Below, piece after piece: positions 1,285 through 16,712 of a stretch of DNA of 45,038 nt. The stretch is from a virus (taxonomy: Duplodnaviria; Heunggongvirae; Uroviricota; Caudoviricetes): positions 1 to 45,038 of IMG/VR virus record IMGVR_UViG_651053023_000003; one strand, 5' to 3'. The notes beneath the pieces are model-generated. The model saw only the letters and a list, made by a program, of their open reading frames with translations, did no database searches and was not told the origin of the DNA. How positions within the stretch are numbered: the first letter of the stretch is position 1; each line of letters opens with the position of its first letter. The translations under genes and the position numbers were made by a program.

Positions 1285-1330
1285 AGGTTGCTCCGGGCTA
1301 TGAAATAGAAAAATGAATCCGTTGAAGCCT

Positions 1331-1418
1331 GCTTTTTTATACTAAGTTGGCATTATAAAAAAGCATTGCTTATCAATTTGTTGCAACGAACAGGTCACTA
1401 TCAGTCAAAATAAAATCA
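1331..1418. other. attL: attL: 15-bp lambda att core GCTTTTTTATACTAA (1331-1345) followed by the phage P' arm
   Basis: Exact lambda core sequence; downstream arm GTTGGCATTATAAAAAAGCATTGCTTATCAATTTGTTGCAACGAACAGGTCACTATCAGTCAAAATAAAATCATTATTTG matches the lambda P' arm from memory; int lies immediately adjacent. Confidence 0.9.
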
Positions 1419-2489
1419 TTATTTGATTTCAATTTTGTCCCACTCCCTGCCTCTGTCATCACGATACTGTGATGCCATGGTGTCCGACTTATGCCCGAGA
1501 AGATGTTGAGCAAACTTATCGCTTATCTGCTTCTCATAGAGTCTTGCAGACAAACTGCGCAACTCGTGAAAGGTAGGCGGATCCCCTTCGAAGGAAAGAC
1601 CTGATGCTTTTCGTGCGCGCATAAAATACCTTGATACTGTGCCGGATGAAAGCGGTTCGCGACGAGTAGATGCAATTATGGTTTCTCCGCCAAGAATCTC
1701 TTTGCATTTATCAAGTGTTTCCTTCATTGATATTCCGAGAGCATCAACATGCAATGCTGTTGGGATGGCAATTTTTACGCCTGTTTTGCTTTGCTCGACA
1801 TAAAGATATCCATCTACGATATCAGACCACTTCATTTCGCATAAATCACCAACTCGTTGCCCGGTAACAACAGCCAGTTCCATTGCAAGTCTGAGCCAAC
1901 ATGGTGATGATTCTGCTGCTTGATAAATTTTCAGGTATTCGTCAGCCGTAAGTCTTGATCTCCTTACCTCTGATTTTGCTGCGCGAGTGGCAGCGACAGG
2001 GTTTGTTGTTATATGGCCTTCAGCTATTGCCTCTCGGAATGCATCGCTCAGTGTTGATCTGATTAACTTGGCTGACGCCGCCTTGCCCTCGTCTATGTAT
2101 CCATTGAGCATTGCCGCAATTTCTTTTGTGGTGATGTCTTCAAGTGGAGCATCAGGCAGACCCCTCCTTATTGCTTTAATTTTGCTCATGTAATTTATGA
2201 GTGTCTTCTGCTTGATTCCTCTGCTGGCCAGGATTTTTTCGTAGCGATCAAGCCATGAATGTAACGTAACGGAATTATCACTGTTGATTCTCGCTGTCAG
2301 AGGCTTGTGTTTGTGTCCTGAAAATAACTCAATGTTGGCCTGTATAGCTTCAGTGATTGCGATTCGCCTGTCTCGGCCTAATCCAAACTCTTTACCCGTC
2401 CTTGGGTCCCTGTAGCAGTAATATCCATTGTTTCTTATATAAAGGTTAGGGGGTAAATCCCGGCGCTCATGACTTCGCCTTCTTCCCAT
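1419..2489 (-). CDS. int: Lambda-type integrase (tyrosine recombinase)
   Basis: 356-aa ORF MGRRRSHERRDLPPNLYIRNNGYYCYRDPRTGKEF... matches lambda Int from memory; adjacent to attL. Confidence 0.95.
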   Translation of the reverse strand: MGRRRSHERRDLPPNLYIRNNGYYCYRDPRTGKEFGLGRDRRIAITEAIQANIELFSGHKHKPLTARINSDNSVTLHSWLDRYEKILASRGIKQKTLINYMSKIKAIRRGLPDAPLEDITTKEIAAMLNGYIDEGKAASAKLIRSTLSDAFREAIAEGHITTNPVAATRAAKSEVRRSRLTADEYLKIYQAAESSPCWLRLAMELAVVTGQRVGDLCEMKWSDIVDGYLYVEQSKTGVKIAIPTALHVDALGISMKETLDKCKEILGGETIIASTRREPLSSGTVSRYFMRARKASGLSFEGDPPTFHELRSLSARLYEKQISDKFAQHLLGHKSDTMASQYRDDRGREWDKIEIK

Positions 2490-2685
2490 TTCTGATCCTC
2501 TTCAAAAGGCTACCTGTTATTGGTCGATTTAAGTCAACCTTTACTGCTGATTCGTGGAACAAATACTCTCTTCCGTCCTTAATCGGTGGTGGGAATATCC
2601 TGCACTCGCGTACCCATCGACGAACTGTTTCAAGGCTTCTTGGGCGCCGCTGGCGTGCGTTCCACTCCTGAAGTGTCAAGTACAT
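2467..2685 (-). CDS. xis: Excisionase
   Basis: 72-aa ORF MYLTLQEWNARQRRPRSLETVRRWVRE... matches lambda Xis; overlaps int start. Confidence 0.93.
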   Translation of the reverse strand: MYLTLQEWNARQRRPRSLETVRRWVRECRIFPPPIKDGREYLFHESAVKVDLNRPITGSLLKRIRNGKKAKS

Positions 2686-2769
2686 CGCAAAGTCTCCGCA
2701 ATTACTCGCAAGGGAACGAGTAGTGGTTGATTTTCTCCAACAAAAAAGGAGCCGAAGCTCCTTTGATGA

Positions 2770-3393
2770 TTAAAATTCGAATTGTCTCGCCCGAAGGCTT
2801 TTCAACATTGGTCTTGCCCGTTCGAAAACGGCGCTTGTCTGGTCAAGTCGTGTCGCCTCCCTGAGCAGTACATCTCTGTTTTTCGTCACCGCATAGAAGG
2901 TTTCAAACGCAATGTCATACAGCTTACTCGCGTATGATGAGTTAAGTTCCTTCATTATCGGGTACAGGCGTTTGCAGATGTCCTGTGCATTCTCCATCTG
3001 TACCTGCATGTAGCAGAGGAGGATGATTTCCTCGTCTGTGAATTGCTGCGCTGGTTGCATGCTGCGAAGTTTCTTTTCGCACTCGATGAAGTATCGGCGT
3101 ATCTGGCGGCCTTTTTCGTTGCGCTCGACCATTGCCAGCTCTTTGGCTGTGTCGAGGGTGAGGTGGTAATCCTTGCGGTTGTGACCGCCTCTACCAGATG
3201 TTTGCTTTCCCAAATTGGAAAGCAAAATATAGTCTTGATTTTCAATGAATTCGTATTCTGAAATGCGATTTGTAATCCATGCCGCAAACACCTTTTTCAC
3301 GCCTAAAAAAGCATGCAGATTGCGGGCATTGCAGAGTAGGGCTGTTTCGTTGGCGATAGTGCCGTTGAATACGGGGATGAGTTGACTGGTCAT
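2770..3393 (-). CDS. AntA-domain antirepressor-like phage protein
   Basis: 207 aa; N-terminal segment ARNLHAFLGVKKVFAAWITNRISEYEFIENQDYI resembles the AntA/AntB antirepressor domain; family call from memory. Confidence 0.5.
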   Translation of the reverse strand: MTSQLIPVFNGTIANETALLCNARNLHAFLGVKKVFAAWITNRISEYEFIENQDYILLSNLGKQTSGRGGHNRKDYHLTLDTAKELAMVERNEKGRQIRRYFIECEKKLRSMQPAQQFTDEEIILLCYMQVQMENAQDICKRLYPIMKELNSSYASKLYDIAFETFYAVTKNRDVLLREATRLDQTSAVFERARPMLKSLRARQFEF

Positions 3394-3739
3394 TTTTATG
3401 TCCTTTGCATTTGTTCAGATAGCCCTGTGTTCAGCAGGGCGGTCAGGTACTTGAACACCGTGCAAAGTCGGCCCGTATCCTTAACCTTTCGGCTGTTTTT
3501 CGGTATACGCGCTACCCGACCATATCTGAGAAATGGACATAAAAAAGCCGCATGACTGACGGGTGCGGTTTCCGCTTTGCAAGGTGTGTTCAGCACCATG
3601 AAGCGGAATATAGCCCCGTTAATGCGGATTTGTCAAATCATGTAGGCCTTATCTTGCTGTAAGCCGCGCCATTCGGGCTTTTCCCCATATTTGGGGAAAA
3701 CTATCTGCGAATTATTCACCTTTGACGGCAAGTTGCAGG

Positions 3740-4357
3740 TTAGCCACGCTTAACCTCCTGCGGCGGTTCCGGTAGCGGCATCCAGTGAGTTGCTTGCTCA
3801 ATACCATTACCCGGCTTAATCGTTGCATCTCCGCGCCGAAAGGTGCTTCCGGTATAGCGTGCGGAGCATATTAGCGGTTCAACCAGAGAGCTATCGAAAT
3901 TCACCGAAATAAGCACGTTCTGGCCCTTTTCAGGCATTCGCTCACTACAGCTTATCCAACCATCCTTAATGCAATTACCTTGACTCTGAAGCATAGCGGC
4001 ACGACAGGCGTTCCAGCCTCTCACCTCTGCAATAGCGGCAACAGCATCAACCGCGTACATTTTAAGAGGGTTAGGCATTGGTTTTTCTTCCGGTACTACT
4101 GGAACGGGGGGAGCGGCGTAGACCTCAATAATTCCATTATCAATAGGCCATTCTCCATCCTTGAGGTAGTCACTTGCGCCGTCAACTTGCTGTTCTGCAA
4201 TGTGGAATGCACCTATTGGTTTTGCTTCCAGCGATGCCAGTGCAATTCGTGCCAGTTCTTCCGCTTCTTCTGCTGGCAGTACAACGTTGCTACCAGGTCC
4301 GTATGTTTCGCGCCACTGCTTGATTGTCAGTAGTCGCTCTTTGGTAATAGTGGTCAT
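3740..4357 (-). CDS. Hypothetical early-region phage protein (possibly DUF551-type)
   Basis: 205-aa ORF in the int-proximal ea/b region, co-oriented with neighbours; domain assignment tentative. Confidence 0.45.
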   Translation of the reverse strand: MTTITKERLLTIKQWRETYGPGSNVVLPAEEAEELARIALASLEAKPIGAFHIAEQQVDGASDYLKDGEWPIDNGIIEVYAAPPVPVVPEEKPMPNPLKMYAVDAVAAIAEVRGWNACRAAMLQSQGNCIKDGWISCSERMPEKGQNVLISVNFDSSLVEPLICSARYTGSTFRRGDATIKPGNGIEQATHWMPLPEPPQEVKRG

Positions 4358-4367
4358 AGGTTAGTCC

Positions 4368-4988
4368 TTAATCATCTGCTTGCAGTGGTGGTAAATCCGG
4401 CACTGTTACGCCAAACAATGCAGCCAGCGCACGATAGTTTTGCTCACTGTGATAGCGGCCTTTACAGCGAACCAGTTTTTCAGCGGCTGTAACAATCGAG
4501 CTTTGTTCTGCTATGCGCTTTTCTGAGGCTTCAAGTAACGCCTGCTTGTCGCGTAGTGCTTCTTCCAGTTCAGCAACATGGCATTCACTATCAATGAGGT
4601 TGTTCTCTGTTGCTTCCAGCTCAACACGCAGCTTCACTACCGTTAGCGCAATATCCTCGTTCTCCTGATCGCGGAGTTTGATGTATTGCTGGTTTCTTTC
4701 CCGTTCATCCAGCAGTGCCAGCACAGTAACAGGATTGGCTGCGGCGATGAATTCAGCATTGGCCTGCTGTTCCATTTGGAAATCTTCATCGAAACCGCTT
4801 TCAGGATGCACTCCTTCAATTCTGCAAATGGGAAGATATCCAACAACGTCACGATGAATTAGCGCATCATCACAATCAAATCGGCTCTCTCCATATTCTA
4901 GCGACCACACACCACACGTTGCTTTCTCTGCCTTTTCACGCAGTGCCTGATAATCAATCTGGCTCACTGGTTGCCTCCTTTGCGCCAC
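4368..4988 (-). CDS. Ea22/Ead-like early protein
   Basis: 206-aa acidic, coiled-coil-rich ORF in ea region; resembles Ea22-like prophage proteins from memory. Confidence 0.45.
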
Positions 4989-5141
4989 ATCGCATTCAGA
5001 TATTTGTTTTGATTCACTGACGGAAAAGAATTTCTCTTAAGTAATTCCTCTCTCGATGGCATTGGCTTTACGCGTTGGCGAATAATCATTTCTGCCGGAA
5101 GAATGCCGGGATTGTATGCAAGTCCTCTCATGGTAAATTCC

Positions 5142-5435
5142 TCAGTCATTACTGATAGCGCCATAGCGTGAGCGGTAATTACGCAGGCGCGGGTCAATTT
5201 CATGGAAGTGGGTATATGTGGCTTTGCGGAATGGTCGGATTGATGTCTGGTAAATTCGCTCGCGTTCTTCTTTCTCTGCAAGCCATATACAATGGCGAAA
5301 TTCCTTTTCCTCTTTCGTTTCCTGCGGTAGCGACATTATCCTGTCGTAGTTTTTCCTGAATTTATCCAGCACCTCCGATACGGAATTGCCGGAACAGCGG
5401 CGCGCGTCGTCCGCACCATACAGAGGCGCTGGCAT
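5142..5435 (-). CDS. Hypothetical phage protein
   Basis: 97-aa ORF co-oriented in early-left operon; overlaps an alternative 105-aa frame (4964-5281), true extent uncertain. Confidence 0.35.
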
Positions 5436-5458
5436 AATGGGAGCCTTATTTTAAGTAA

Positions 5459-6046
5459 TCAGAAAGGAGGGTAATCGTTCTGGCTGTAACCATAATCATC
5501 TGCATGATTCTGGCTTACGTTTTTAGAGCGATTGTCTTTATCTTTGAGGCTGGCAACCATGTTGGCGATAGTTTCTGGTTGCTTGCCTTCCGCCTTTTCT
5601 TTAAGGGTTTGACCTGTTTGTGCAATAAACGGGATGCGTATTTCCATCTGGTAGCTGTCTGCGCCAGTCTTTTTGTTTGTGGTTAATACTTTCTGGAGCA
5701 CTAACCCGATTTTCTTTCCATGAAATTCAGGAGCAACAAATTTACTGGCGGAAACCATATGTTGCGTTAATTGTCCAATCCCGGCACACCCCATCATGGC
5801 GTGGACGACATTTGCGCCAAATTTATTTTCCGTTCCGTCATTTTTCTGAACACAGACGCTAAGATATTGGATTTTACGTCCGTCGTCGGATTCGCCAGAA
5901 AACTCAATAAATTTGGCTCCTTTTTCTGATTGCTTTAGTTCTGCTTCAGTAATGGTAATGATATGAGCGCCAGTTTCGTTAATAAAACCACCTTGCCCTG
6001 CGGTCAGTGCTGCTTCTTCGTTATAAGTAAAAATCACGTTGTTCAT
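5459..6046 (-). CDS. Phage SSB-like protein, cognate partner of Sak4 (DUF669-type)
   Basis: 195 aa, immediately downstream of and overlapping the Sak4 gene; acidic C-terminal tail ending ...DDYGYSQNDYPPF, reminiscent of the SSB DIPF tail. Confidence 0.5.
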   Translation of the reverse strand: MNNVIFTYNEEAALTAGQGGFINETGAHIITITEAELKQSEKGAKFIEFSGESDDGRKIQYLSVCVQKNDGTENKFGANVVHAMMGCAGIGQLTQHMVSASKFVAPEFHGKKIGLVLQKVLTTNKKTGADSYQMEIRIPFIAQTGQTLKEKAEGKQPETIANMVASLKDKDNRSKNVSQNHADDYGYSQNDYPPF

Positions 6047-6723
6047 GCTGCGTTTTCCTTAATTTGATGAACATTATTGATGCCGTAGTAATCACAAACA
6101 GTGGCATCGACGAAAGAGAGATCGTTATCAATCTCATTGGAGTCAAACATTCCCATTGGGGATTTAACAGTGTCTGCACCGTTGTTTTTTGTGGTGAAAA
6201 AGAACTGGTCATCACGGGTAAGGGTGCGAAGAACTATAGTAAACATGCCTTCGACAGTGATTTTCTCGTCCAGCATTTTGCCGATAGTTTTCATTTTCAC
6301 GCGCCCCATAGGGGTTTCTTCGGTGTGTGCAAGAAAATAGACTCTCAGGTCATCAGGTGCATCCTGTGCAGCCTTAATCACCTCCCATGCGTGGCGGCCT
6401 ATCTCAGTAAATTTATCAAACGATTTTTCTTCTGAGCGGCGCATAAACTCATTGCTCATCACATACTGGAAGTCATCAACAATAACGATTCTTTTCCCGT
6501 ATTCGTGAGCACGCTTAATTACGGCAACTATTACGTCCCATTTGTCAGTGGTAACTACGGTTCCTTTTTTTGCTCTGGCATCCCATGCAAGCCAGTCTTT
6601 TGATTTAAATGGTAGCGGCTTGCCTATTGGTTTTATAAGTATTGCTTCCTCTGGATTGATATTTCTCATGCTGGTTGATTTTCCGGTGCCAGATTCACCG
6701 AGTATTAATGTCGCAGTTCCCAT
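6043..6723 (-). CDS. Sak4-like RecA-fold recombination ATPase
   Basis: 226 aa with Walker A LILGESGTGKST and Walker B-like IVIVDD; occupies the position of lambda bet/exo. Confidence 0.7.
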   Translation of the reverse strand: MGTATLILGESGTGKSTSMRNINPEEAILIKPIGKPLPFKSKDWLAWDARAKKGTVVTTDKWDVIVAVIKRAHEYGKRIVIVDDFQYVMSNEFMRRSEEKSFDKFTEIGRHAWEVIKAAQDAPDDLRVYFLAHTEETPMGRVKMKTIGKMLDEKITVEGMFTIVLRTLTRDDQFFFTTKNNGADTVKSPMGMFDSNEIDNDLSFVDATVCDYYGINNVHQIKENAA

Positions 6724-6731
6724 AATTTGCC

Positions 6732-6932
6732 TCAGAATGGTAATTCGGATGGGACGGAAAGAAATTCGCGCTCATTCATGCGCTCTCTTTGAGCCTGCCA
6801 TAAACAAAGTTGTTTCTTTGATTTATCTCCCGCTTTACGCCAGTAACGAGCCTCAGCAATGTGATATTCTCTTTTTAATCGACTTAATTCTGGAGTTTTC
6901 GCCAGTTCTACCGGAATCATTTTGACCTCCAT
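6732..6932 (-). CDS. Hypothetical small protein
   Basis: 66-aa ORF between kil and Sak4 in the same operon orientation. Confidence 0.35.
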   Translation of the reverse strand: MEVKMIPVELAKTPELSRLKREYHIAEARYWRKAGDKSKKQLCLWQAQRERMNEREFLSVPSELPF

Positions 6933-7030
6933 TTTCTGTAGGCTTCGATGGCCTCACGAAACATCTTTTCATCGCCAATAAAAGTGGCGATAGTGAATTT
7001 AGTCTGGATAGCCATAAGTGTTTGATCCAT
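6917..7030 (-). CDS. kil: Kil-like host-killing protein
   Basis: MDQTLMAIQTKFTIATFIGDEKMFREAIEAYRKWRSK directly downstream of and overlapping cIII as in lambda; GGAG Shine-Dalgarno upstream of the ATG at 7030. Confidence 0.55.
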   Translation of the reverse strand: MDQTLMAIQTKFTIATFIGDEKMFREAIEAYRKWRSK

Positions 7031-7163
7031 TTTTTGGGACTCCTGGCTGATTAAGTACGTCGATGAGTCGTTTCCATCCGTCACGTAATTTGCGGGTGAT
7101 TCGTTCAAGTAAAGATTCGGAAGGGCAGCCAGCAACAGGCCACCCTGCAATGGCATATTGCAT
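6999..7163 (-). CDS. cIII: CIII (FtsH inhibitor, stabilises CII)
   Basis: 54-aa MQYAIAGWPVAGCPSESLLERITRKLRDGWKRLIDVLNQPGVPKNGSNTYGYPD, essentially lambda CIII from memory; AAGGAG Shine-Dalgarno upstream. Confidence 0.85.
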   Translation of the reverse strand: MQYAIAGWPVAGCPSESLLERITRKLRDGWKRLIDVLNQPGVPKNGSNTYGYPD

Positions 7164-7759
7164 GGTGTGCTCCTTATTTATACATAACGAAAACGCCTCG
7201 AGTGAAGCGTTATTGGTATGCATATAAAAAGGCCCTCACACTGGAGGGCAAAGAAGATTTCCAATAATCAGAACAAGTCGGCTCCTGTTTAGTTACGAGC
7301 GACATTGCTCCGTGTATTCACTCGTTGGAATGAATACACAGTGCAGTGTTTATTCGTATGCCTGTCTTTTAACCACATCAGGCTCGGTGGTTCTCGTGTA
7401 CCCCTACAGCGAGAAATCGGATAAACTCTATTCACCCCCTACAGAGAGAATGATGGAGATTCACCGATGAGTAACTGGTGGCAGGAACTATTACGTTTCT
7501 TCCTGCGTGGTCTTACGCTACAACAGTTAATTCATATGCTTATTATTTTAATTGCCTTGATAATAATCACCCCTGCATCAATTAAAGAGTGGGTAGATAT
7601 AAGGAACCCAGAAATACTTCCAGATCACTGGATGTATTACGCAATGCTTTTGTGTATCAGTTATGTTCTGAACAGGGTGATGGAGTTTATATTTCTGGCA
7701 TCTTCAGACAGATATAAAAAATATCTCAGTAAGAGAGATGAGGCTAAAGTAATTGTGGA

Positions 7760-7768
7760 GACTGAGCG
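7760..7768. repeat. IS10 target-site duplication, left copy GACTGAGCG
   Basis: Identical 9 bp at 9098-9106 directly flanking the other IS10 end. Confidence 0.9.
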
Positions 7769-9097
7769 CTGAGAGATCCCCTCATAATTTCCCCAAAGCG
7801 TAACCATGTGTGAATAAATTTTGAGCTAGTAGGGTTGCAGCCACGAGTAAGTCTTCCCTTGTTATTGTGTAGCCAGAATGCCGCAAAACTTCCATGCCTA
7901 AGCGAACTGTTGAGAGTACGTTTCGATTTCTGACTGTGTTAGCCTGGAAGTGCTTGTCCCAACCTTGTTTCTGAGCATGAACGCCCGCAAGCCAACATGT
8001 TAGTTGAAGCATCAGGGCGATTAGCAGCATGATATCAAAACGCTCTGAGCTGCTCGTTCGGCTATGGCGTAGGCCTAGTCCGTAGGCAGGACTTTTCAAG
8101 TCTCGGAAGGTTTCTTCAATCTGCATTCGCTTCGAATAGATATTAACAAGTTGTTTGGGTGTTCGAATTTCAACAGGTAAGTTAGTTGCTAGAACCCATG
8201 GCTCCTTTGCCGACGCTGAGTAGATTTTAGGTGACGGGTGGTGACAATGAGTCCGTGTCGAGCGCTGATTTTTTCGGCCTTTAGAGCGAGATTTATACAA
8301 TAGAATTTGGCATGAGATTGGATTGCTTTTAGTCAGCCTCTTATAGCCTAAAGTCTTTGAGTGACTAGATGACATATCATGTAAGTTGCTGATAGGTTTC
8401 CAGTTTTCCGCTCCTAGGTCTGCATATTGTACTTTTCCTCTTACTCGACTTAACCAGTACCAACCCAGCTTCTCAACGGATTTATACCATGGCACTTTAA
8501 AGCCAGCATCACTGACAATGAGCGGTGTGGTGTTACTCGGTAGAATGCTCGCAAGGTCGGCTAGAAATTGGTCATGAGCTTTCTTTGAACATTGCTCTGA
8601 AAGCGGGAACGCTTTCTCATAAAGAGTAACAGAACGACCGTGTAGTGCGACTGAAGCTCGCAATACCATAAGTCGTTTTTGCTCACGAATATCAGACCAG
8701 TCAACAAGTACAATGGGCATCGTATTGCCCGAACAGATAAAGCTAGCATGCCAACGGTATACAGCGAGTCGCTCTTTGTGGAGGTGACGATTACCTAACA
8801 ATCGGTCGATTCGTTTGATGTTATGTTTTGTTCTCGCTTTGGTTGGCAGGTTACGGCCAAGTTCGGTAAGAGTGAGAGTTTTACAGTCAAGTAATGCGTG
8901 GCAAGCCAACGTTAAGCTGTTGAGTCGTTTTAAGTGTAATTCGGGGCAGAATTGGTAAAGAGAGTCGTGTAAAATATCGAGTTCGCACATCTTGTTGTCT
9001 GATTATTGATTTTTCGCGAAACCATTTGATCATATGACAAGATGTGTATCCACCTTAACTTAATGATTTTTACCAAAATCATTAGGGGATTCATCAG
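7769..9097 (-). mobile_element. IS10 insertion sequence (1329 bp)
   Basis: Inside end CTGAGAGATCCCCTCATAATTTCCCC at 7769; outside end (reverse complement CTGATGAATCCCCTAATGATTTTGGTAAAAATCATTAAG) ends at 9097; length 1329 bp; intact transposase. Confidence 0.95.
7782..8990 (-). CDS. IS10 transposase
   Basis: 402-aa ORF MCELDILHDSLYQFCPELHLKRLNSLTLACHALLDCK... matches IS10 transposase from memory. Confidence 0.95.
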   Translation of the reverse strand: MCELDILHDSLYQFCPELHLKRLNSLTLACHALLDCKTLTLTELGRNLPTKARTKHNIKRIDRLLGNRHLHKERLAVYRWHASFICSGNTMPIVLVDWSDIREQKRLMVLRASVALHGRSVTLYEKAFPLSEQCSKKAHDQFLADLASILPSNTTPLIVSDAGFKVPWYKSVEKLGWYWLSRVRGKVQYADLGAENWKPISNLHDMSSSHSKTLGYKRLTKSNPISCQILLYKSRSKGRKNQRSTRTHCHHPSPKIYSASAKEPWVLATNLPVEIRTPKQLVNIYSKRMQIEETFRDLKSPAYGLGLRHSRTSSSERFDIMLLIALMLQLTCWLAGVHAQKQGWDKHFQANTVRNRNVLSTVRLGMEVLRHSGYTITREDLLVAATLLAQNLFTHGYALGKL

Positions 9098-9106
9098 GAC
9101 TGAGCG
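9098..9106. repeat. IS10 target-site duplication, right copy GACTGAGCG
   Basis: Identical to 7760-7768. Confidence 0.9.
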
Positions 9107-9365
9107 CCTGTTCAATTCTCTGAGTATTCAGGAAAAAGAGGTTTTAGCATTTGCTGTTATGGCAAATAACAAAATCGTACTTAAGCACGGCGATCCGGTC
9201 GCTTTATCTCTTATGAGAAAAGGCCTTCTCCATCGCTCAGGTGTGACTTACAGCGCGTCAGGTAAAGAGAAATTTGTTATACCTGACGTCTGGTTCCATG
9301 AGTGTTATATGCGCTTTGCTGGTAAAGCTGATGAGCTAATTTAGTTCCTCGACGGCGGGGGATCG

Positions 9366-9638
9366 TCACCTCGCCGTCAGTTGTTTTGATTTCCGGTAGC
9401 CTGCCGCGTAAATAGCTACGTTCGGAAGACAAGTTGAACCTTCATATTTTCTGGTCAACGTTGTCAGTGTTATTACTTCTGCTCTCATTGCTGGTTTGCG
9501 CTTGCATTGCAAGACCACTCGTGAGGGGGTTGGCCTGTGTAGCTTGTCGGAGCTAATCGACTCCTGACTTTGCAGATTTGCGCGACGAGCTCTACGGCGA
9601 GAAGCTGCGGTGCCTTTAAATTCTGTTTTTCTGGACAT
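9366..9638 (-). CDS. N: N-type transcription antiterminator
   Basis: 90-aa ORF from the ATG at 9638 (GGGAGG Shine-Dalgarno upstream); arginine-rich motif GTAASRRRARRANLQ near the N-terminus; downstream of pL and nutL; convergent with sieB. Confidence 0.7.
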   Translation of the reverse strand: MSRKTEFKGTAASRRRARRANLQSQESISSDKLHRPTPSRVVLQCKRKPAMRAEVITLTTLTRKYEGSTCLPNVAIYAAGYRKSKQLTAR

Positions 9639-9663
9639 AGATTCCTCCCGAATAAACTCTGGC

Positions 9664-9711
9664 GATGCAATCCCGAAGCTACTCCTGAGAGGGTTGCTTC
9701 GGCATTGCATC
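9664..9711 (-). promoter_or_regulatory. Long imperfect hairpin in the N leader (RNase III-type site candidate)
   Basis: 16-nt arms GATGCAATCCCGAAGC / GCTTCGGCATTGCATC (one mismatch) around a ~16-nt loop, 26 nt upstream of the N start. Confidence 0.5.
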
Positions 9712-9736
9712 CCACAGCTTATGTGGTTGGGTGATC

Positions 9737-9783
9737 TGGCTTTTCAGCCACGTAGTCGAGTGTTCGACGTTGTTTAAAGAGCC
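9737..9783 (-). promoter_or_regulatory. nutL: nutL (boxA GGCTCTTTAA, boxB stem-loop TGGCTGAAAAGCCA)
   Basis: Read on the minus strand: boxA-like GCTCTTTAA followed by a small hairpin with GAAAA-containing loop, between pL and N. Confidence 0.65.
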
Positions 9784-9830
9784 TGCCAGTCTGTTCCGTT
9801 TGGCTTACAGCGTCCTGCTGATGAGTTAAC

Positions 9831-9948
9831 TTTATCGAAATGATAAATTAATGGCAATAGCAAAATGATAAATTGTTTTAGTTTTCAAATATCCTGTTGA
9901 TTATTATGGTTTTTTATTTGATTGCAGGAATTTATCAGAAGGAATAAA
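9831..9948. promoter_or_regulatory. OL operator/pL region
   Basis: 17-bp palindromic site TTTATCGAAATGATAAA (9831-9847) and related TTTATCAGAAGGAATAA (9932-9948); same half-site as in the cI-cro intergenic region; exact pL -35/-10 not resolved. Confidence 0.5.
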
Positions 9949-10049
9949 GAGACTTGAGGGGGATCAGAATTGCGCGTTTTAGTGAGTTGTATCTGTTTAT
10001 TTTTCAACAAATACAATCGATTATGTGTTTTTAGGTGGGCGAACGTTGG

Positions 10050-10078
10050 GCAAAGAAAACCCGGCACTGAGGCCGGGT
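10050..10078 (-). terminator. Rho-independent terminator ending the cI-distal cassette
   Basis: On minus strand: perfect 6-7 bp GC stem CCCGGC-loop-GCCGGG followed by TTTCTTTG, immediately after the stop of the 227-aa gene. Confidence 0.7.
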
Positions 10079-10083
10079 GTGTA

Positions 10084-10767
10084 TTAGGGGGTTGAGACTC
10101 CAGAGAGCAATCCGTAGATTTTATCTACAGCAAATGCTAATGCTGGCAAGCCAAGGGCCCATTTGATTATATCAAGCTTAACATCACTAAGCTTACCTTC
10201 TAACTTTGCCTCTTGAACAGAAAGAGCTGCATCGATCTTTTTTGATTGGGAGTCAAGGGCACTCTCAATTCTACTCGATTGTATGTCCAGACGACTGTTG
10301 ATTTGTTCGTGCTGAGTAACAACTAAATGCTTCATCTCCTTTATATCTGAAGCCATTAGTTCACGCCATTTGGCCATATCAGCCTGCATTTTTGAGGCCA
10401 CTGCATCCACTTCAGCTTTATTTGCCTTCAGAAGTGCCTGTATTTCGTTTCTGCTCAAATCGGACATTGCGGTTCCCTGTATAGGAGTTTCCTCGTACGG
10501 TGGGATAACATTAGATTGTCCTTTACAATCGGCAACCCCTCCTTTATCTACGATTGTAGCAGTTAGCTGGGAATTGGTCGCATCATCCACCATGTTTTTT
10601 GGTGAATAAGAGGAAATAGGCGTAGAAAACAGATTACCTTTTGCTGTTTCCATGAACATCATGAAATCGCGAGTATTAACGTTATTCAGGGAAACTTGCA
10701 GTGGTTTAACAATACTTGATGTTTTGTAAGTAATAGTTAAATCACCTACTTCTTCCGGTTGTTGCAT
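10084..10767 (-). CDS. Hypothetical protein with long coiled-coil region and C-terminal hydrophobic segment (possible membrane anchor); rexB-position gene
   Basis: 227-aa ORF; start ATG overlaps upstream gene stop (TAATG); heptad-like region KANKAEVDAVASKMQADMAKW...; C-terminus IIKWALGLPALAFAVDKIYGLLSGV; AT-rich. Confidence 0.6.
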   Translation of the reverse strand: MQQPEEVGDLTITYKTSSIVKPLQVSLNNVNTRDFMMFMETAKGNLFSTPISSYSPKNMVDDATNSQLTATIVDKGGVADCKGQSNVIPPYEETPIQGTAMSDLSRNEIQALLKANKAEVDAVASKMQADMAKWRELMASDIKEMKHLVVTQHEQINSRLDIQSSRIESALDSQSKKIDAALSVQEAKLEGKLSDVKLDIIKWALGLPALAFAVDKIYGLLSGVSTP

Positions 10768-11099
10768 TACGACTTCGCTCCATTAGAGTTTTGTGCCTCT
10801 AATTGTTCGAAAAGAAGAACTATATTCTCCTGAAGAGCCTTTAGTTGTGCCATTGGCATTATCACAGTGCATTGCTGATTGAGTTCATTTACAGAGCCTA
10901 TCTGCATATTCGCTCTACCTGGTTGATCTGGTATATCATTTTGGGATAGTACCGCAGGTATTGACTTGTTTGCGATAAAATGTATACAAATGAGATTTTT
11001 TTCCGCTCCCGGTAGTGGAGCAAAACTAGCGAAGTCCGCATAGGTTTCAATATAATCCACAGATGGTTTAATTTTGACCGGTTCCATAACGCCTCTCAT
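10767..11099 (-). CDS. Hypothetical small soluble protein; rexA-position gene
   Basis: ORF directly downstream of cI; possible starts at ATG 11099 or ATG 11087 (the latter preceded by AGAGG); translationally coupled to the next gene. Confidence 0.55.
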   Translation of the reverse strand: MRGVMEPVKIKPSVDYIETYADFASFAPLPGAEKNLICIHFIANKSIPAVLSQNDIPDQPGRANMQIGSVNELNQQCTVIMPMAQLKALQENIVLLFEQLEAQNSNGAKS

Positions 11100-11104
11100 C
11101 AAAT

Positions 11105-11133
11105 ATTGTAGGTTTTTTAATTCAATGTGTTAA
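11105..11133 (-). promoter_or_regulatory. Candidate sigma70 promoter for the two-gene cassette (TTAACA-N17-TACAAT)
   Basis: On minus strand: -35 TTAACA (plus 11128-11133), 17-bp spacer, -10 TACAAT (plus 11105-11110), ending 5 nt before the first ATG. Confidence 0.5.
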
Positions 11134-11210
11134 ATGTTGGTGGTGTGTTATTTAAAGTTATTTTGACATCCTCCACGCCCTGAAGGACGGGGCTTGTCAC
11201 GTACTTGAAG

Positions 11211-11915
11211 TCACAAACTTTTCAGCCACTCCCTTGCCTCGATGTCATCCAGATGACGAGATTGCTTCAGAATACCAGCCACATACTCCACCTTTGCTAC
11301 TTGATGATAAGGTAACGTTATTGGCCTGTGGTCCTGGTTGATGCTTGTAAATTGGTATTCTCCATCTCTGTCATAGCCAAGAATCTTGATCATGTTGTGT
11401 CCTTCAACGGTTCTGACAAACACCTCATCCCCCGGGAATACTTTGGTGTTAGGCTCAATGAGTACATATTCTCCTGATTTTATTCTGGGCCACATGCTGT
11501 CTCCTTTCACACGAAGACCAAAGGCATCTGGATCATCACTATAAATCTTGAGCCACCCATCGCGCTCTTCGGTCATCTCGATGGCACCATCAACACCAAG
11601 AATTGCCTCACCAACCACGCGCACTAACCCTTTTCTTACCTGACCGACAAAAGTTAAAGAATCTGAGCATGATGCAATTGGTGTTACATCATGTACCAAA
11701 TCAAGCCACCCATTAGGTAACCCAAGTGCGGCTTCGAATTTTCTTGCTAGTTTATCCCCTATGTTTCGAGTGCTTTTTTCACCGGAGACTTGCGTGAGTT
11801 GAGAAGGGCTAACTCCAAGCTTATCGGCAAAGCTTGCATTAGTGTTACCCGCGATTTTTTTATGCTCATCTAGCAAAAACGCCAGATTCGATTTGCGAAT
11901 ATCTTTGTTTTCCAT
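11211..11915 (-). CDS. cI: CI-type repressor (N-terminal HTH, C-terminal S24 LexA-like peptidase domain)
   Basis: 234-aa ORF; HTH region GNTNASFADKLGVSPSQLTQVSGEK; C-terminal S24 signature around GDSMWP...KILG; divergent from cro across an operator region. Confidence 0.85.
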   Translation of the reverse strand: MENKDIRKSNLAFLLDEHKKIAGNTNASFADKLGVSPSQLTQVSGEKSTRNIGDKLARKFEAALGLPNGWLDLVHDVTPIASCSDSLTFVGQVRKGLVRVVGEAILGVDGAIEMTEERDGWLKIYSDDPDAFGLRVKGDSMWPRIKSGEYVLIEPNTKVFPGDEVFVRTVEGHNMIKILGYDRDGEYQFTSINQDHRPITLPYHQVAKVEYVAGILKQSRHLDDIEAREWLKSL

Positions 11916-11933
11916 CCCACGATTCTCCCTCTA

Positions 11934-11999
11934 TTTAGTAAATGGATAAATACGCATTTTGATAAATCTCCATTGCAGTTTATTTATCAAGATGGTAAA
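11934..11999. promoter_or_regulatory. OR operator region with pRM/pR
   Basis: 17-bp sites TTTAGTAAATGGATAAA (11934-11950) and TTTATCAAGATGGTAAA (11983-11999) with half-site TTTATC/GATAAA, plus inverted repeat TTGATAAAT...ATTTATCAA between them. Confidence 0.55.
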
Positions 12000-12028
12000 G
12001 TTGCTCTGTGTGATAAACGGAGGCACTA

Positions 12029-12262
12029 ATGAGTAATGAACTACTACGCTGGCGAAAAGAGGCTTCTAGTGAGGAATGGAAGCGACTCGCCGCATTAGCG
12101 AATACTTCAGTTGGCTATCTTGATCAGATTGCATATGGGTTTCGAAGAGCTTCCCCAGATAAAGCGAATGCAATCGAAGAAGCCACTCGTAATTTCACGG
12201 GTTATAAACCTGTGAAAAAGGAAAATCTGGTGTTCGTATCGCGTAGAGCATCAGCAGCATAA
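12029..12262 (+). CDS. cro: Cro-like HTH regulator
   Basis: 77-aa ORF divergent from cI, GGAGG Shine-Dalgarno; HTH-like segment TSVGYLDQIAYG; not lambda Cro sequence, call by position. Confidence 0.65.
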   Translation: MSNELLRWRKEASSEEWKRLAALANTSVGYLDQIAYGFRRASPDKANAIEEATRNFTGYKPVKKENLVFVSRRASAA

Positions 12263-12269
12263 GTAACCT

Positions 12270-12315
12270 CGCTCTTTGTAACAACGGACATTCGTCCTAC
12301 GTCGCTGAAAAGCGA
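12270..12315 (+). promoter_or_regulatory. nutR: nutR (boxA CGCTCTTTG, boxB stem-loop TCGCTGAAAAGCGA)
   Basis: boxA consensus-like at 12270-12278 and hairpin at 12302-12315 with the same UGAAAA loop as the nutL boxB. Confidence 0.65.
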
Positions 12316-12400
12316 ATCCCAGAATATCTGACCAACCAAGGCCATATGCGTTTCCACGCATACCTTTCAACTAGCTATTCACTATTGGAAATCATAAGAA

Positions 12401-12700
12401 ATGGAACAAACAAGTTACAGCAAACTATCACAGCGCGACGTTGATCGCGCAGAAACAGATTTACTCATCAACCTGTCAACGCTTACCCAGCGCGGTCTGG
12501 CAAAGATGATTGGCTGTCATGAATCGAAGATAAGCAGAACGGACTGGAGATTTATTGCTTCGGTCCTGTGTGCTTTTGGAATGGCATCAGACATCAGTCC
12601 GATTAGCAGGGCTTTTAAGTATGCGCTTGATGGACTCACCAATAAAAAACGCCCGGTGTGCAAGATCGAGCGTTCTGATCAAATACAAATGGAATTTTAA
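12401..12700 (+). CDS. cII: CII transcriptional activator
   Basis: 99 aa; C-terminus ...LTNKKRPVCKIERSDQIQMEF resembles lambda CII ...ILTNKKRPAATERSEQIQMEF; HTH GLAKMIGCHESKISR. Confidence 0.85.
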   Translation: MEQTSYSKLSQRDVDRAETDLLINLSTLTQRGLAKMIGCHESKISRTDWRFIASVLCAFGMASDISPISRAFKYALDGLTNKKRPVCKIERSDQIQMEF

Positions 12701-12722
12701 CAACATCCAACGAGGTAATTAT

Positions 12723-12995
12723 ATGCGAAACAAAGGCTTTAATCCACCTGATACACACAAAGAAGCTAAGCGTTTGCGCTTCCTTCGTTCCATTGATGAA
12801 AGAACTCAAATCTCTTTTGTGAAAGTTGCCAGAACTGAGCTTCTGAAGGCTGAGGCGAGGGCGTTGCTCCCGTCTCTACCAAAAGAGGAGGGATATACGT
12901 TCATTCCAAACGCATTTCTGGAAAAGCTGCTCAAAGAAGACATATCCGTAAGTCAGTTTAACGATGTTCTTAAGGTCTTTCGTCAAGGCAGGTAG
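12723..12995 (+). CDS. Hypothetical protein between cII and the replication genes
   Basis: 90-aa ORF from the internal ATG of the longer track ORF; co-oriented in the pR operon. Confidence 0.4.
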   Translation: MRNKGFNPPDTHKEAKRLRFLRSIDERTQISFVKVARTELLKAEARALLPSLPKEEGYTFIPNAFLEKLLKEDISVSQFNDVLKVFRQGR

Positions 12996-12997
12996 TT

Positions 12998-13945
12998 ATG
13001 AGCAATACAGCAAAAATCTACGATTTCAGCGCCGCACACGAGCGCAGGAGCAACAGGATGGAGAACCAGAAAACTGGTTACATTCCGTTGTACCGGAGCA
13101 TTCTGAAACAGTCATGGGCGAAAGATGTTTATCTTCGCACCCTGTGGGAAAACCTTCTCCTGAATGCCGCCAGAAAGCCACACAAAGCGAATTTCAAAGG
13201 TCATGAATGGCATCTGCAACCCGGTCAACTGGTTGTGACAGCAGCTGATTTAGGTCTTCAGTTATGCGACAGGCATGGCAAGCCGGCAAGCCGTGATCAG
13301 GTTGAGCGGATGCTTCAGGTTTTTGTGAAAGAGGGGATGATCACCATTGATGGAGAGAAGCAAAAAGGTCGTGTGATCACCATCACGAATTACCATGAAT
13401 ATGCTCAAAAAATGGACAATTCACCCGCACATGAAGCCGCACAAACAACCGCACATGACGCCGCACATGACGAAGCCAGTAATGGCGCGGCTTTCAGCGT
13501 ACATGCCGCACATGAAAGCGCACATGAAGCCGCACAAACAACCGCACATCATGAACAAGAAGGTATTAACAAGAATATAAATAATACCCCCCTACCCCCC
13601 AATGGGGGAGGCGATGGGCAGGTTAAACCTGAACGTCGCAAGGCAGAACGAATCGACTATGAATCCTTCCTGAATGCCTACAACACCGAAGTCGGTGACA
13701 GACTGCCACACGCTGTTGCGGTCAACGAGAAACGCAAACGTCGCCTGAAGAAAATCATTCCGCAACTGAAAACGCCAAACGTGGACGGTTTCAGAGCGTA
13801 TGTCAGGGCGTTTGTGCATCAGGCCAAGCCGTTTTACTTCGGAGACAACGACACGGGCTGGACGGCAGATTTTGATTACCTGCTGAGGGAAGATTCGTTA
13901 ACGGGAGTACGGGAAGGGAAGTTTGCAGACAGGGGGATTGCATGA
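12998..13945 (+). CDS. Replication initiator (lambda O / P22 gp18-like) with internal origin
   Basis: 315 aa; repeat-encoded middle segment [17 protein letters not shown]...[14 protein letters not shown]; stop overlaps helicase start (ATGA). Confidence 0.75.
13422..13555. repeat. Origin iterons (about six copies of CCGCACATGA-core repeats) inside the initiator gene
   Basis: Direct repeats of GCCGCACATGA(A/C)G at about 13425, 13449, 13461, 13506, 13519 and 13543, followed by an AT-rich stretch and C/G tracts (13560-13620). Confidence 0.7.
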
Positions 13946-15275
13946 GACAGGATATCGAAGCGAGCGTTATCGGTGGCCTGCTGATTGGTGGATTAACTCC
14001 AACCGCCAGTGACGTTCTGGCAACGCTTGAGCCGGAAGCGTTTTCAATTCCGCTCTACAGGAAAGCCTTCGAGGTTATCCGCAAGCAGGCGAGAAACAGA
14101 AACCTAATCGATGCGCTGATGGTTGCCGAGGCGTGCGGAGAGGAGCATTTCACGTCAATCCTGATGACCAGCAAAAACTGCCCGAGTGCCGCAAACCTGA
14201 AGGGATATGCCGGAATGGTCGCGGATAACTATCACCGCCGTCTGGTGCTGGAAATCATGGATGAAATGCGTGAACCAATTCAGAGCGGAACCATCGACGC
14301 ATCGAGTCAGGCGATGGATGAGCTTGTAAAGCGTCTCTCAGCCATCAGAAAGCCCCGTGACGAGGTTAAACCTGTACGGTTAGGGGAAATCATCACCGAC
14401 TACACTGACACGCTTGACAGGCGTCTGAGGAACGGAGAAGGGTCAGATACCCTGAAGACCGGAATCGAAGAACTTGACGCCATCACCGGAGGGATGAACG
14501 CAGAAGACCTGGTGATTATCGCTGCTCGTCCTGGTATGGGGAAAACCGAGCTGGCGCTGAAGATTGCCGAAGGCGTTGCAAGCCGCGTTATTCCAGGTTC
14601 TGACGTTCGGCGCGGAGTATTGATTTTCTCAATGGAAATGAGCGCATTGCAGATTGCAGAGCGAAGCATTGCCAACGCCGGGAGGATGTCGGTTAGCGTA
14701 CTGCGAAATCCTGCATCGATGGATGACGAAGGCTGGGCGCGTGTTGCTAACGGCATGAGTCAGCTTGCAGATTTGGATGTATGGGTAGTCGATGCCTCGC
14801 GGTTATCGGTCGAAGAAATACGCTCAATCGCAGAACGGCACAAACAGGAAAATCCAAACCTCTCACTCATCATGGCGGATTATCTTGGCCTGATTGAGAA
14901 GCCGAAAGCAGACCGCAACGACCTCGCAATTGCTCACATCTCCGGAAGCCTGAAGGCGATGGCGAAAGACCTGAAAACGCCTGTTATCTCCCTGAGTCAG
15001 CTTTCTCGCGATGTTGAGAAGCGACCAAACAAACGCCCGACAAACGCAGATTTGCGTGATTCAGGAAGCATTGAGCAGGACGCAGACTCAATCATCATGC
15101 TCTATCGGGAAGCGGTGTATGACGAGAACAGTAGCGCCGCGCCATTTGCTGAAATCATCGTGACGAAAAACCGTTTTGGCTCACTTGGTACGGTTTACCA
15201 GCGGTTCTGTAACGGACACTTTGAACCGCCCCGGAAATCCTGGAGACTAAACTCCCTGAGAAAGAGGTAAACAGG

Positions 15276-15602
15276 ATGACTAAAAATACTCGTTTTTCCC
15301 CCGAAGTCCGTCAGCGGGCGATTCGTATGGTTCTGGAAAGTCAGGATGAATATGACTCACAGTGGGCGGCAATTTGTTCCATTGCCCCAAAGATTGGCTG
15401 TACGCCGGAGACTCTGCGTGTCTGGGTTCGCCAGCATGAGCGGGATACCGGGGGCGGTGATGGTGGGCTCACCAGCGCTGAACGTCAGCGTCTGAAAGAG
15501 CTGGAACGTGAAAATCGTGAACTGCGCCGCAGTAACGATATCCTTCGCCAGGCTTCCGCTTATTTTGCGAAGGCGGAGTTCGACCGCCTCTGGAAAAAAT
15601 GA
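15276..15602 (+). CDS. IS3-family transposase OrfA
   Basis: 108-aa [38 protein letters not shown]... with HTH and leucine-zipper-like region. Confidence 0.85.
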
Positions 15603-16489: not shown

Positions 16490-16657
16490 GTTCACAGATA
16501 AAACACTCTCCAGGAAACCCGGGGCGGTTCACTTTGTTGCATGTGACCAGGATGAAGCCAGACAGATTTGCACAGCATCAAATGCGCCTGCTGCGCGTGG
16601 CAGACGATATGCACAAGGGGCGGACGTATGACCATCTACATCACTGAGCTAATAACA

Positions 16658-16688: not shown

Positions 16689-16712
16689 GGATTAAGAACG
16701 AGGGGGATCCTG

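What the first reader, a model, noticed from the sequence alone, without database searches (positions are those of the whole stretch)
7467..9344. IS10 insertion with perfect 9-bp duplication inactivating a sieB-like exclusion gene
A complete 1329-bp IS10 (intact transposase, both ends) is flanked by identical GACTGAGCG copies at 7760-7768 and 9098-9106, a close match to the IS10 target consensus NGCTNAGCN. Joining the flanks restores a single ~178-aa ORF with an N-terminal transmembrane segment, rightward and convergent with N, which is the arrangement of lambda sieB. A prophage abortive-infection gene disrupted by a recent transposition is of interest for how defence genes are lost.
Basis: partly seen in the sequence, partly recalled or inferred. 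Interest (0 to 1): 0.55.

Follow-up and report, generated by a model that had tools for sequence, protein, structure and literature searches.

The report
IS10 insertion splitting prophage sieB gene
A standard IS10 jumping gene has landed in, and almost certainly knocked out, a phage-exclusion gene (sieB) of a P22-like prophage; the reading is correct but ordinary, apart from evidence that this exact 9-bp spot has been hit by IS10 more than once.

Summary
A 1329-bp IS10 lies at 7769-9097, with its transposase on the minus strand. It is flanked by identical 9-mers GACTGAGCG at 7760-7768 and 9098-9106. The element is the IS10-right type. It is 1329/1329 identical to copies in E. coli EPI300 and O111:H11 88-19539, and differs at 16 nt from an IS10-left copy.

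Removing the IS and one repeat gives a 540-nt, 179-aa ORF (not 178). That ORF is 100% identical to an intact annotated "super-infection exclusion protein B" gene in E. coli MMC-J-0105. The protein passes Pfam SieB (72.8 bits, cut-off 26) and is 49% identical to P22 SieB over its full length. It shows no significant pairwise similarity to lambda SieB. It sits convergent with N, 21 nt away, behind a leader about 97% identical to the P22 sieB promoter region.

The insertion cuts SieB, and the in-frame Esc product, after residue 101. Loss of function is inferred, not shown.

The same target carries IS10 in the opposite orientation in strain 88-19539. It also carries IS10 in the window's orientation on a different allele in one IMG/VR contig. 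So this is a target hot spot. The prophage also has an IS629-like element in its helicase gene. Known elements, known mechanism: low interest.

The parts
7357..7466 (+). sieB promoter and leader region
   Evidence: Window 7357-7446 is 87/90 identical to the P22 region that holds the annotated sieB promoter and RNA start site. The coding region is only about 50-75% identical.
7467..7768 (+). sieB 5' fragment: codons 1-100 plus 2 nt of codon 101. It reads on into IS10 to a TGA at 7770-7772, giving a 101-aa truncated product with both hydrophobic segments. Met24 aligns with the P22 Esc start.
   Evidence: Pfam SieB profile positions 2-73 of 147, 46.1 bits. 302/302 identical to the intact gene of E. 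coli MMC-J-0105.
7760..7768 (.). Left copy of the 9-bp target-site duplication GACTGAGCG
7769..9097 (-). IS10, IS10-right type, 1329 bp. The inside end is at 7769 and the outside end at 9097.
   Evidence: 1329/1329 identical to the IS10 copies of E. coli EPI300 and 88-19539. It differs at 16 nt from the jemA/gltS-adjacent (IS10-left) copy and is 968/968 identical to the tetD-adjacent partial copy of plasmid NZ_CP122450.1 (gene order from PMC5571418).
7782..8990 (-). IS10 transposase gene, 402 aa, uninterrupted. The ATG is at IS10 nt 108.
8983..9052 (+). RNA-OUT antisense RNA. pOUT is directed rightward, out of the outside end towards the sieB 3' fragment.
   Evidence: Rfam RF00240, 98.8 bits against a gathering score of 41, full-length match. 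The 5' end is at IS10 nt 115.
9098..9106 (.). Right copy of the 9-bp target-site duplication GACTGAGCG
9107..9344 (+). sieB 3' fragment: the last base of codon 101, codons 102-179 and the stop codon. It is in frame with an IS-internal ATG at 9042, giving a mechanical 100-aa hybrid ORF with no evidence of expression.
   Evidence: Pfam SieB profile positions 72-127, 24.3 bits. Identical to the intact MMC-J-0105 gene.
9351..9378 (+). Terminator-like GC-rich hairpin between the convergent sieB and N genes
   Evidence: Consensus scan only.
9366..9638 (-). N antiterminator gene, 90 aa, convergent with sieB
   Evidence: Pfam N_peptide 109.6 bits. The equivalent 273-nt gene is annotated in L001 and L006.

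Best explanation
An IS10 of the active IS10-right type transposed by its ordinary cut-and-paste mechanism. IS10 makes 9-bp staggered target cuts, which explains the 9-bp duplication. It landed in a near-consensus target (GACTGAGCG) inside codons 98-101 of the sieB gene of a P22-like prophage. The prophage has a lambda-type integrase and lies next to ybhC in an E. coli/Shigella-type host. The insertion separates the membrane-anchoring N-terminal 101 residues from the conserved C-terminal 78 residues. It splits the Pfam SieB domain at about position 73 of 147. It truncates both predicted products of the gene: full-length SieB, and the Esc-type product that would start at Met24. The gene is therefore most probably null for SieB-type exclusion. 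In P22, that exclusion stops macromolecular synthesis midway through the lytic cycle of superinfecting P22-like phages. The event is recent: the IS has no differences from other copies, and the two sieB halves have no differences from an intact allele found elsewhere. The choice of site is explained by IS10 target preference, because the same 9 bp has been hit independently in other strains. Shown here: the anatomy, the family memberships, the intact allele and the recurrence. Inferred: the loss of the exclusion phenotype, and that this sieB was active before the hit.
For: In-silico excision gives a 540-nt ORF that is 540/540 identical to the annotated intact gene WP_000073666.1 in E. coli MMC-J-0105. 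Seventy of 5426 complete E. coli genomes hold at least 80% of the gene. Seventeen of 18 IMG/VR contigs with the intact target hold an open full-length ORF with 0-7 nt differences; the 18th is cut by the contig end. SieB membership rests on Pfam 72.8 bits (cut-off 26), phrog_1301 at E 3.6e-94 and 49% identity to P22 SieB. The Esc start Met is conserved and the promoter/leader is 87/90 identical to P22. The synteny cIII - sieB -> <- N is as in lambda and P22. Independent contigs break at the junctions. For recurrence, E. coli O111:H11 88-19539 has an identical IS10 at the identical 9 bp in the opposite orientation. IMG/VR contig UViG_2657245112_000001 has IS10 in the window's orientation, but on the O111-type allele (3 SNPs) and in a different prophage context. 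The SieB phenotype is taken from PMC10883804. The sas/Esc regulation is taken from PMC12197685.
Against: No functional data exist for this allele. It is only 49% identical to P22 SieB, and its exclusion activity and targets are unknown. The 101-aa N-terminal fragment keeps the promoter and both hydrophobic segments, so residual or altered activity cannot be excluded. The target matches only 5 of 6 strict-consensus positions, while the window holds 8 perfect GCTNAGC cores that are unoccupied. Consensus alone therefore does not explain why this site is used repeatedly.
Confidence: 0.88

Rival explanations
1. The insertion is neutral decay in an already defective prophage. It is simply one of several IS hits in a dying element and says nothing specific about defence genes.
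For: A second IS (IS629-like, 15222-16531, 3-bp duplication CTT) removes the last ~31 codons of the prophage DnaB-type helicase gene. The repeated use of the same 9 bp in both orientations fits target preference rather than selection.
Against: This is compatible with the best explanation rather than exclusive of it. The order of the two IS events is unknown. The truncated helicase keeps nearly the whole DnaB_C domain (profile positions 2-247 of 255), so the prophage may still be functional. sieB is a lysogen-expressed gene whose benefit to the host does not depend on prophage viability.
Confidence: 0.35
2. Loss of sieB is positively selected, for example because SieB aborts induction of co-resident P22-like or lambdoid prophages, or is costly. 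On this view the recurrence of IS hits reflects selection.
For: The same sieB allele is interrupted in at least three ways: IS10 in two orientations at nt 302/303, and an IS3-family element at nt 401 in four STEC genomes. Nine of 122 E. coli records that match the allele have it in two places.
Against: Most carriers keep an intact ORF: 70 complete genomes and 17 of 18 IMG/VR contigs. The four IS3-family cases lie in the same flanking context in strain 07_3636 and may be one clonal event. Strain 88-19539 has at least 40 IS10 places, so hits anywhere in it are expected. No neutral expectation was computed.
Confidence: 0.1
3. The insertion changes function rather than only abolishing it. pOUT, which points out of the IS10 outside end, would drive a C-terminal SieB fragment that acts as an Esc-like anti-exclusion factor. 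That fragment could be the hybrid ORF 9042-9344 or a product of an internal Met. pOUT could also drive transcription antisense to N.
For: RNA-OUT/pOUT is oriented towards the 3' fragment. An in-frame ATG at 9042 gives a 100-aa hybrid ORF. pOUT read-through activating adjacent genes is established for IS10 (papers cited in PMC4574204).
Against: The ATG at 9042 lies inside the RNA-OUT stem and no ribosome-binding site is evident. P22 Esc is the whole protein from Met25, including the membrane segments, which this fragment lacks. No gene with this product was called in any public assembly. A terminator-like hairpin at 9351-9378 precedes N. The O111 strain has the opposite orientation, so orientation is not conserved.
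Confidence: 0.03
4. The structure is an assembly or cloning artefact. IS10 is known to hop from laboratory E. coli hosts into cloned DNA.
For: IS10 hopping into cloned DNA is a documented artefact (PMC4574204). The IS is identical to the copy in the laboratory strain EPI300.
Against: Short-read assemblies made directly from genomic DNA break exactly at both junctions and match the window at 100%. These are NCBI GCA_012669925.1 and Logan SRR10990336. The same kind of allele exists in a complete genome of a bovine isolate.
Confidence: 0.02

Closest known systems
IS10-right of Tn10 (IS4 family; annotated by NCBI as 'IS4-like element ISVsa5 family')
   Same: It is 1329 bp long with both ends and a 402-aa transposase starting at nt 108. 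RNA-OUT starts at nt 115. GATC sites lie at the pIN region and the inside end. It makes a 9-bp duplication at a near-consensus target. The sequence is 100% identical to free IS10 copies in E. coli and to the tetD-adjacent copy of a Tn10.
   Different: Nothing detectable. It differs from IS10-left at 16 nt, giving 4 amino-acid changes.
P22 SieB/Esc (sieB gene of Salmonella phage P22, BK000583 29758-30336)
   Same: The Pfam family is the same. Identity is 49% over the full length. The position is the same: rightward, between the early-left genes and gene 24/N, convergent with N across a ~20-nt gap. The promoter/leader block is nearly identical. The internal Met that starts Esc is conserved. The N-terminal hydrophobic segments are shared.
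   Different: It is 179 aa rather than 192 aa, lacking the 12-residue P22 C-terminal tail. Half of the residues differ. The gene is interrupted here. No phenotype is known for this allele.
Lambda SieB (NP_597779, 34482-35036)
   Same: It belongs to the same Pfam family (103.5 bits) and has the same ral - sieB -> <- N arrangement.
   Different: There is no significant pairwise BLASTP similarity (E 0.10), and only 21% identity in the multiple alignment.
sieB::IS10 pseudogene of E. coli O111:H11 strain 88-19539 (NZ_CP077491.1, KP540_RS20405)
   Same: The gene is the same, with 4 nt differences. The 9-bp target and duplication are the same, and the IS10 sequence is identical.
   Different: The IS10 is in the opposite orientation. 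The surrounding prophage differs: it has an ERF recombinase, a TolA-like pseudogene and different genes next to the repressor.

Membership tests
IS10 (IS4 family insertion sequence) | Element of 1329 bp with the characteristic imperfect terminal inverted repeats (outside end CTGATGAATCCCC..., inside end CTGAGAGATCCCC...) | tested here: met
   7769-9097 is 1329 bp and both ends are present.
IS10 (IS4 family insertion sequence) | Single uninterrupted DDE transposase of 402 aa | tested here: met
   Pfam DDE_Tnp_1 87.3 bits. NCBIfam IS4-family equivalog 404.3 bits against a cut-off of 152. The ORF runs 8990->7782 without stops.
IS10 (IS4 family insertion sequence) | 9-bp target-site duplication at a site resembling NGCTNAGCN | tested here: met
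   Identical GACTGAGCG copies abut both ends. The site matches 5/6 of the strict consensus and all of the relaxed consensus quoted in PMC4574204.
IS10 (IS4 family insertion sequence) | Antisense RNA-OUT overlapping the transposase start near the outside end | tested here: met
   Rfam RF00240, 98.8 bits against a gathering score of 41, at 8983-9052.
IS10 (IS4 family insertion sequence) | Sequence identity to IS10-right rather than IS10-left | tested here: met
   There are 0 differences to the tetD-adjacent partial copy (968 nt) and 16 differences to the jemA/gltS-adjacent copy in NZ_CP122450.1. Left/right assignment uses the gene order in PMC5571418.
IS10 (IS4 family insertion sequence) | Transposition activity | not testable with these tools
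   Activity is inferred from the intact ORF and ends and from the identity to widely dispersed copies.
SieB superinfection exclusion protein (Pfam PF14163) | Match to the family profile above the curated threshold | tested here: met
   The reconstructed 179-aa protein scores 72.8 bits against a cut-off of 26. Lambda SieB scores 103.5 and P22 SieB 101.4 with the same model. phrog_1301 matches at E 3.6e-94.
SieB superinfection exclusion protein (Pfam PF14163) | Full-length homology to an experimentally characterised SieB | tested here: met
   Identity to P22 SieB is 48.9% over residues 2-179, E 2e-42; alignment.
   BLASTP gives E 0.10 for a misregistered 24-residue stretch. The relationship is visible only through the profile.
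SieB superinfection exclusion protein (Pfam PF14163) | Genomic position: rightward gene inside the leftward early operon, convergent with N | tested here: met
   In the window, cIII (6999-7223, minus strand; Rfam cIII thermoregulator at 7118-7176) is followed by sieB on the plus strand and N on the minus strand. Lambda and P22 have the same order.
SieB superinfection exclusion protein (Pfam PF14163) | Own promoter active in the lysogen | tested here: inconclusive
   The region is 87/90 identical to the annotated P22 sieB promoter and leader. However, the generic sigma-70 scan found no site in 7200-9800, and expression was not measured.
SieB superinfection exclusion protein (Pfam PF14163) | Second in-frame product (Esc) from an internal start, with sas antisense RNA control | tested here: inconclusive
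   Met24 aligns with the P22 Esc start Met25 and is invariant in the alignment. sas was not located, and translation is not testable here.
SieB superinfection exclusion protein (Pfam PF14163) | Abortive exclusion phenotype against superinfecting phages | not testable with these tools
   The phenotype is known only for P22 and lambda SieB (PMC10883804). There was no PADLOC model hit.

The most novel reading that the evidence does not exclude
The 9-bp site GACTGAGCG inside this sieB allele may be a true IS10 hot spot that is used repeatedly in both orientations. If so, it would make sieB a recurrently switched-off exclusion gene in polylysogenic E. coli. The switch could be reversible, through precise excision across the 9-bp repeats. 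Its recurrence would be driven partly by selection against SieB, for example conflict with co-resident lambdoid prophages, rather than by target preference alone.
Probability: 0.1. Interest if true: 0.45.

Novelty: already known. Interest (0 to 1): 0.18.

Why it matters
This is a clean, datable example of a prophage-borne exclusion gene being knocked out by an insertion sequence. Independent hits at the identical target in other strains show how IS target preference can make particular defence genes fragile. It adds no new kind of element or mechanism. IS10, SieB and IS-mediated gene inactivation are all textbook, and an equivalent sieB::IS10 pseudogene is already annotated in a RefSeq genome. 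Its practical value is for annotation: the two fragments should be called one pseudogene. It also gives a ready-made natural pair, intact versus IS10-interrupted allele, for testing what this uncharacterised SieB variant excludes.

Tried and rejected
- **Phage records, DNA level.** Megablast of the reconstructed gene against phage records found nothing. tblastn was needed and gave at most 51% identity.
- **Lambda SieB.** Pairwise BLASTP to lambda SieB was not significant.
- **Species-representative genomes.** Neither the exact left junction nor the empty site was found. That collection holds one genome per species and cannot resolve strains.
- **Complete E. coli genomes.** None holds the window's junction, so the source strain and organism name remain unidentified. 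It is an E. coli/Shigella-type host, judged by the ybhC flank.
- **Exact-protein look-ups.** The hybrid ORF 9042-9344 and the truncated helicase returned nothing.
- **Literature.** A search for sieB plus IS10 returned only noise, and SRR10990336 is cited in no held paper.
- **PADLOC.** There was no model hit for SieB or for the two genes between N and the repressor.
- **Promoter scan.** The generic scan found no sigma-70-like site in 7200-9800. It therefore gave no independent support for the sieB promoter, pIN or pOUT, which rest on homology and Rfam instead.
- **Not run.** I judged structure prediction and the large protein-database searches unnecessary.
Full report
**1. The observation**

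Reading the sequence and checking it by script confirms every coordinate in the finding.
- A 1329-bp element lies at 7769-9097.
- Its left end is CTGAGAGATCCCCTCATAATTTCCCC, the IS10 inside end. The reverse complement of its right end is CTGATGAATCCCCTAATGATTTTGG, the IS10 outside end.
- The 9-mers directly outside it, 7760-7768 and 9098-9106, are both GACTGAGCG. This 9-mer occurs nowhere else in the window on either strand. Two given 9-mers agree by chance about 4 times in a million.
- One uninterrupted 402-aa ORF runs on the minus strand from 8990 to 7782. It is a DDE transposase of the IS4 family (Pfam 87.3 bits; NCBIfam IS4 equivalog 404 bits against a cut-off of 152).

**2. Identity of the IS**

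The internal landmarks fall where IS10 has them.
- The transposase ATG is at IS10 nt 108.
- Rfam finds a full-length RNA-OUT (98.8 bits, gathering score 41) at 8983-9052 on the plus strand, so its 5' end is at nt 115.
- The only two GATC sites lie at the pIN region (9028) and the inside end (7775).

The element is 1329/1329 identical to the fhuA::IS10 copy of the laboratory strain EPI300. It is also 1329/1329 identical to a copy in E. coli O111:H11 88-19539.

In a Tn10-bearing plasmid (NZ_CP122450.1), the copy next to gltS/jemA differs from the window's at 16 nt (4 amino acids). The partial copy next to tetD is 968/968 identical. [quoted passage not shown] So the window carries the IS10-right type, the active module (PMC11148124).

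**3. The interrupted gene**

Removing the IS and one repeat copy joins 7467-7768 to 9107-9344.
- The ORF is 540/540 identical to an intact gene annotated "super-infection exclusion protein B" (WP_000073666.1) in E. coli MMC-J-0105.
- Seventy of 5426 complete E. coli genomes hold at least 80% of it.
- Of 18 IMG/VR contigs that contain the intact target site, 17 hold an open full-length ORF with 0-7 nt differences, and one is cut by the contig end.
- The protein passes the Pfam SieB model (72.8 bits, cut-off 26) and phrog_1301 (E 3.6e-94).
- It is 48.9% identical to P22 SieB over residues 2-179 (E 2e-42).
- Against lambda SieB, pairwise BLASTP is not significant (E 0.10, out of register). Lambda SieB does score 103.5 bits on the same Pfam model.

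**4. Context**

The arrangement matches both reference phages.
- In lambda, sieB (34482-35036, plus strand) abuts N (35037-35438, minus strand) and follows ral.
- In P22, sieB (29758-30336) is followed after 20 nt by the convergent gene 24.
- In the window, sieB ends at 9344 and a convergent N gene (Pfam N_peptide 109.6 bits) ends at 9366. cIII and kil lie upstream on the minus strand, and Rfam finds the cIII thermoregulator at 7118-7176.
- The 90 nt at 7357-7446, just upstream of the ATG, are 87/90 identical to the P22 stretch that carries the annotated sieB promoter and RNA start. The coding region is only 50-75% identical.
- P22 annotates a second product, Esc, starting at SieB codon 25. 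The aligned Met24 is conserved here.
- Hydropathy shows two hydrophobic segments (about residues 16-37 and 58-79), both upstream of the insertion.

The wider window is a prophage next to ybhC. It has a lambda-type integrase, an S24 repressor, an O-type replication protein, a DnaB-type helicase, and P22-type portal, coat and tailspike head-binding domains.

**5. What the insertion does**

The IS enters codon 101. The 5' fragment reads into a TGA supplied by the IS, giving a 101-aa product that covers Pfam SieB profile positions 2-73 of 147. The 3' fragment covers positions 72-127. Both SieB and the Esc-type product lose the conserved C-terminal 78 residues.

In P22, SieB stops macromolecular synthesis midway through the lytic cycle of superinfecting P22-like phages. 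Esc and the sas antisense RNA protect P22 itself (PMC10883804; PMC12197685).

I infer that the interrupted allele is null for such exclusion. This is an inference: neither this allele's activity nor its loss has been measured.

The event is recent on sequence grounds. The IS has no differences from other copies, the duplication is perfect, and the two gene halves have no differences from an intact allele.

**6. The insertion is real**

Short-read assemblies made independently of the window match it at 100%, and two contigs stop exactly at the repeats.
- Logan SRR10990336_389 equals window 5114-7794 and ends 26 nt into IS10.
- NCBI GCA_012669925.1 contig AASZZQ010000117.1 equals window 9099-15217. 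It runs from the right IS10 junction to the junction of a second IS.

No complete E. coli genome in the collection has this junction. The source organism name could not be recovered.

**7. Recurrence at the same site**

- E. coli O111:H11 88-19539 carries an identical IS10 in the same gene, with the same GACTGAGCG duplication, but in the opposite orientation and in a different prophage. It is the only one of 5426 complete genomes with that junction, and it has at least 40 IS10 places.
- IMG/VR contig UViG_2657245112_000001 has IS10 at the same site in the window's orientation. It is on the O111-type sieB allele (3 SNPs from the window's, at nt 108, 144 and 212) and in the O111-type flanking context.

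So the site has been hit at least twice and probably three times.

The site matches 5 of 6 strict-consensus positions (NGCTNAGCN) and all of the relaxed consensus NRCNNNGYN (PMC4574204). The window also contains 8 perfect and 210 one-mismatch GCTNAGC cores, none of them occupied. Context effects beyond the core, or some selection, must therefore contribute.

In addition, four STEC genomes carry an IS3-family element at nt 401 of the same gene; these may be one clonal event.

I read the recurrence mainly as IS10 target preference. The symmetric target allows both orientations. Selection against sieB is possible but unproven, since most carriers keep the gene intact.

**8. Rivals**

- An assembly or cloning artefact is excluded by section 6.
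- Neutral decay of a defective prophage is compatible with the data. An IS629-like element (15222-16531, duplication CTT) removes the last ~31 codons of the helicase gene.
- A gain-of-function reading is unsupported. Under it, pOUT would drive the hybrid ORF 9042-9344 as an Esc-like fragment. The ATG lies inside the RNA-OUT stem, the fragment lacks the membrane segments that Esc retains, and orientation is not conserved between strains.

**9. Verdict**

Both components are known and sequence-identical to catalogued entities. The mechanism is textbook, and an equivalent pseudogene is already annotated in RefSeq. Interest is low. The hot-spot recurrence is a modest, testable addition.

Noticed in passing
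window 15222-16531: A second insertion sequence is present: a 1310-bp IS3-family element of IS629/IS1203 type. It has two ORFs, 15276-15602 and 15599-16489, and an ALIL frameshift pseudoknot at 15557-15673 (Rfam 121.5 bits). A 3-bp duplication CTT flanks it. It is inserted near the 3' end of the prophage DnaB-type helicase gene and removes about 31 codons.
   Followed up: partly
window 10084-11102, minus strand: Two genes sit between N/pL and the S24 repressor, the position of lambda rexAB. One encodes a 227-aa coiled-coil protein with a hydrophobic C-terminus (phrog_14825, weak CCDC90-like match). The other encodes a 106-111-aa protein with no family match. Neither has a PADLOC hit. They are a candidate lysogen-expressed exclusion or moron cassette of unknown function. 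The O111 prophage has different genes at this position.
   Followed up: partly
window 7357-7446: This 90-nt block upstream of sieB is 87/90 identical to phage P22, although the adjacent coding sequence is only 50-75% identical. It covers the annotated P22 sieB promoter and RNA start, and may also relate to the sas antisense RNA, which I did not locate.
   Followed up: partly
L009 (E. coli 07_3636, NZ_CP074928.1) 3501-5214; also strains 2011C_3361, 2013C_3653 and 2013C_3963: The same sieB allele is interrupted at nt 401 by an IS3-family element that is about 95% identical to the one in the window's helicase gene. RefSeq annotates the truncated 142-aa product as an intact SieB protein.
   Followed up: partly
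L010 (E. coli RM10410, NZ_CP042350.1) 2498-3830: Another IS10 (6 mismatches) sits in the same neighbourhood of a lambdoid prophage, between a cIII-side gene annotated 'superinfection exclusion protein' and an N remnant. It is not in this sieB allele.
   Followed up: no
window 3433-3521, minus strand: Rfam matches sRNA-Xcc1 (68.3 bits, gathering score 53) in the early-left region of the prophage.
   Followed up: no
window 1-2489: The prophage left end abuts the host gene ybhC and carries a lambda-type integrase with an arm-binding domain. This means integration at the lambda attachment region, although the virion genes are P22-type.
   Followed up: partly
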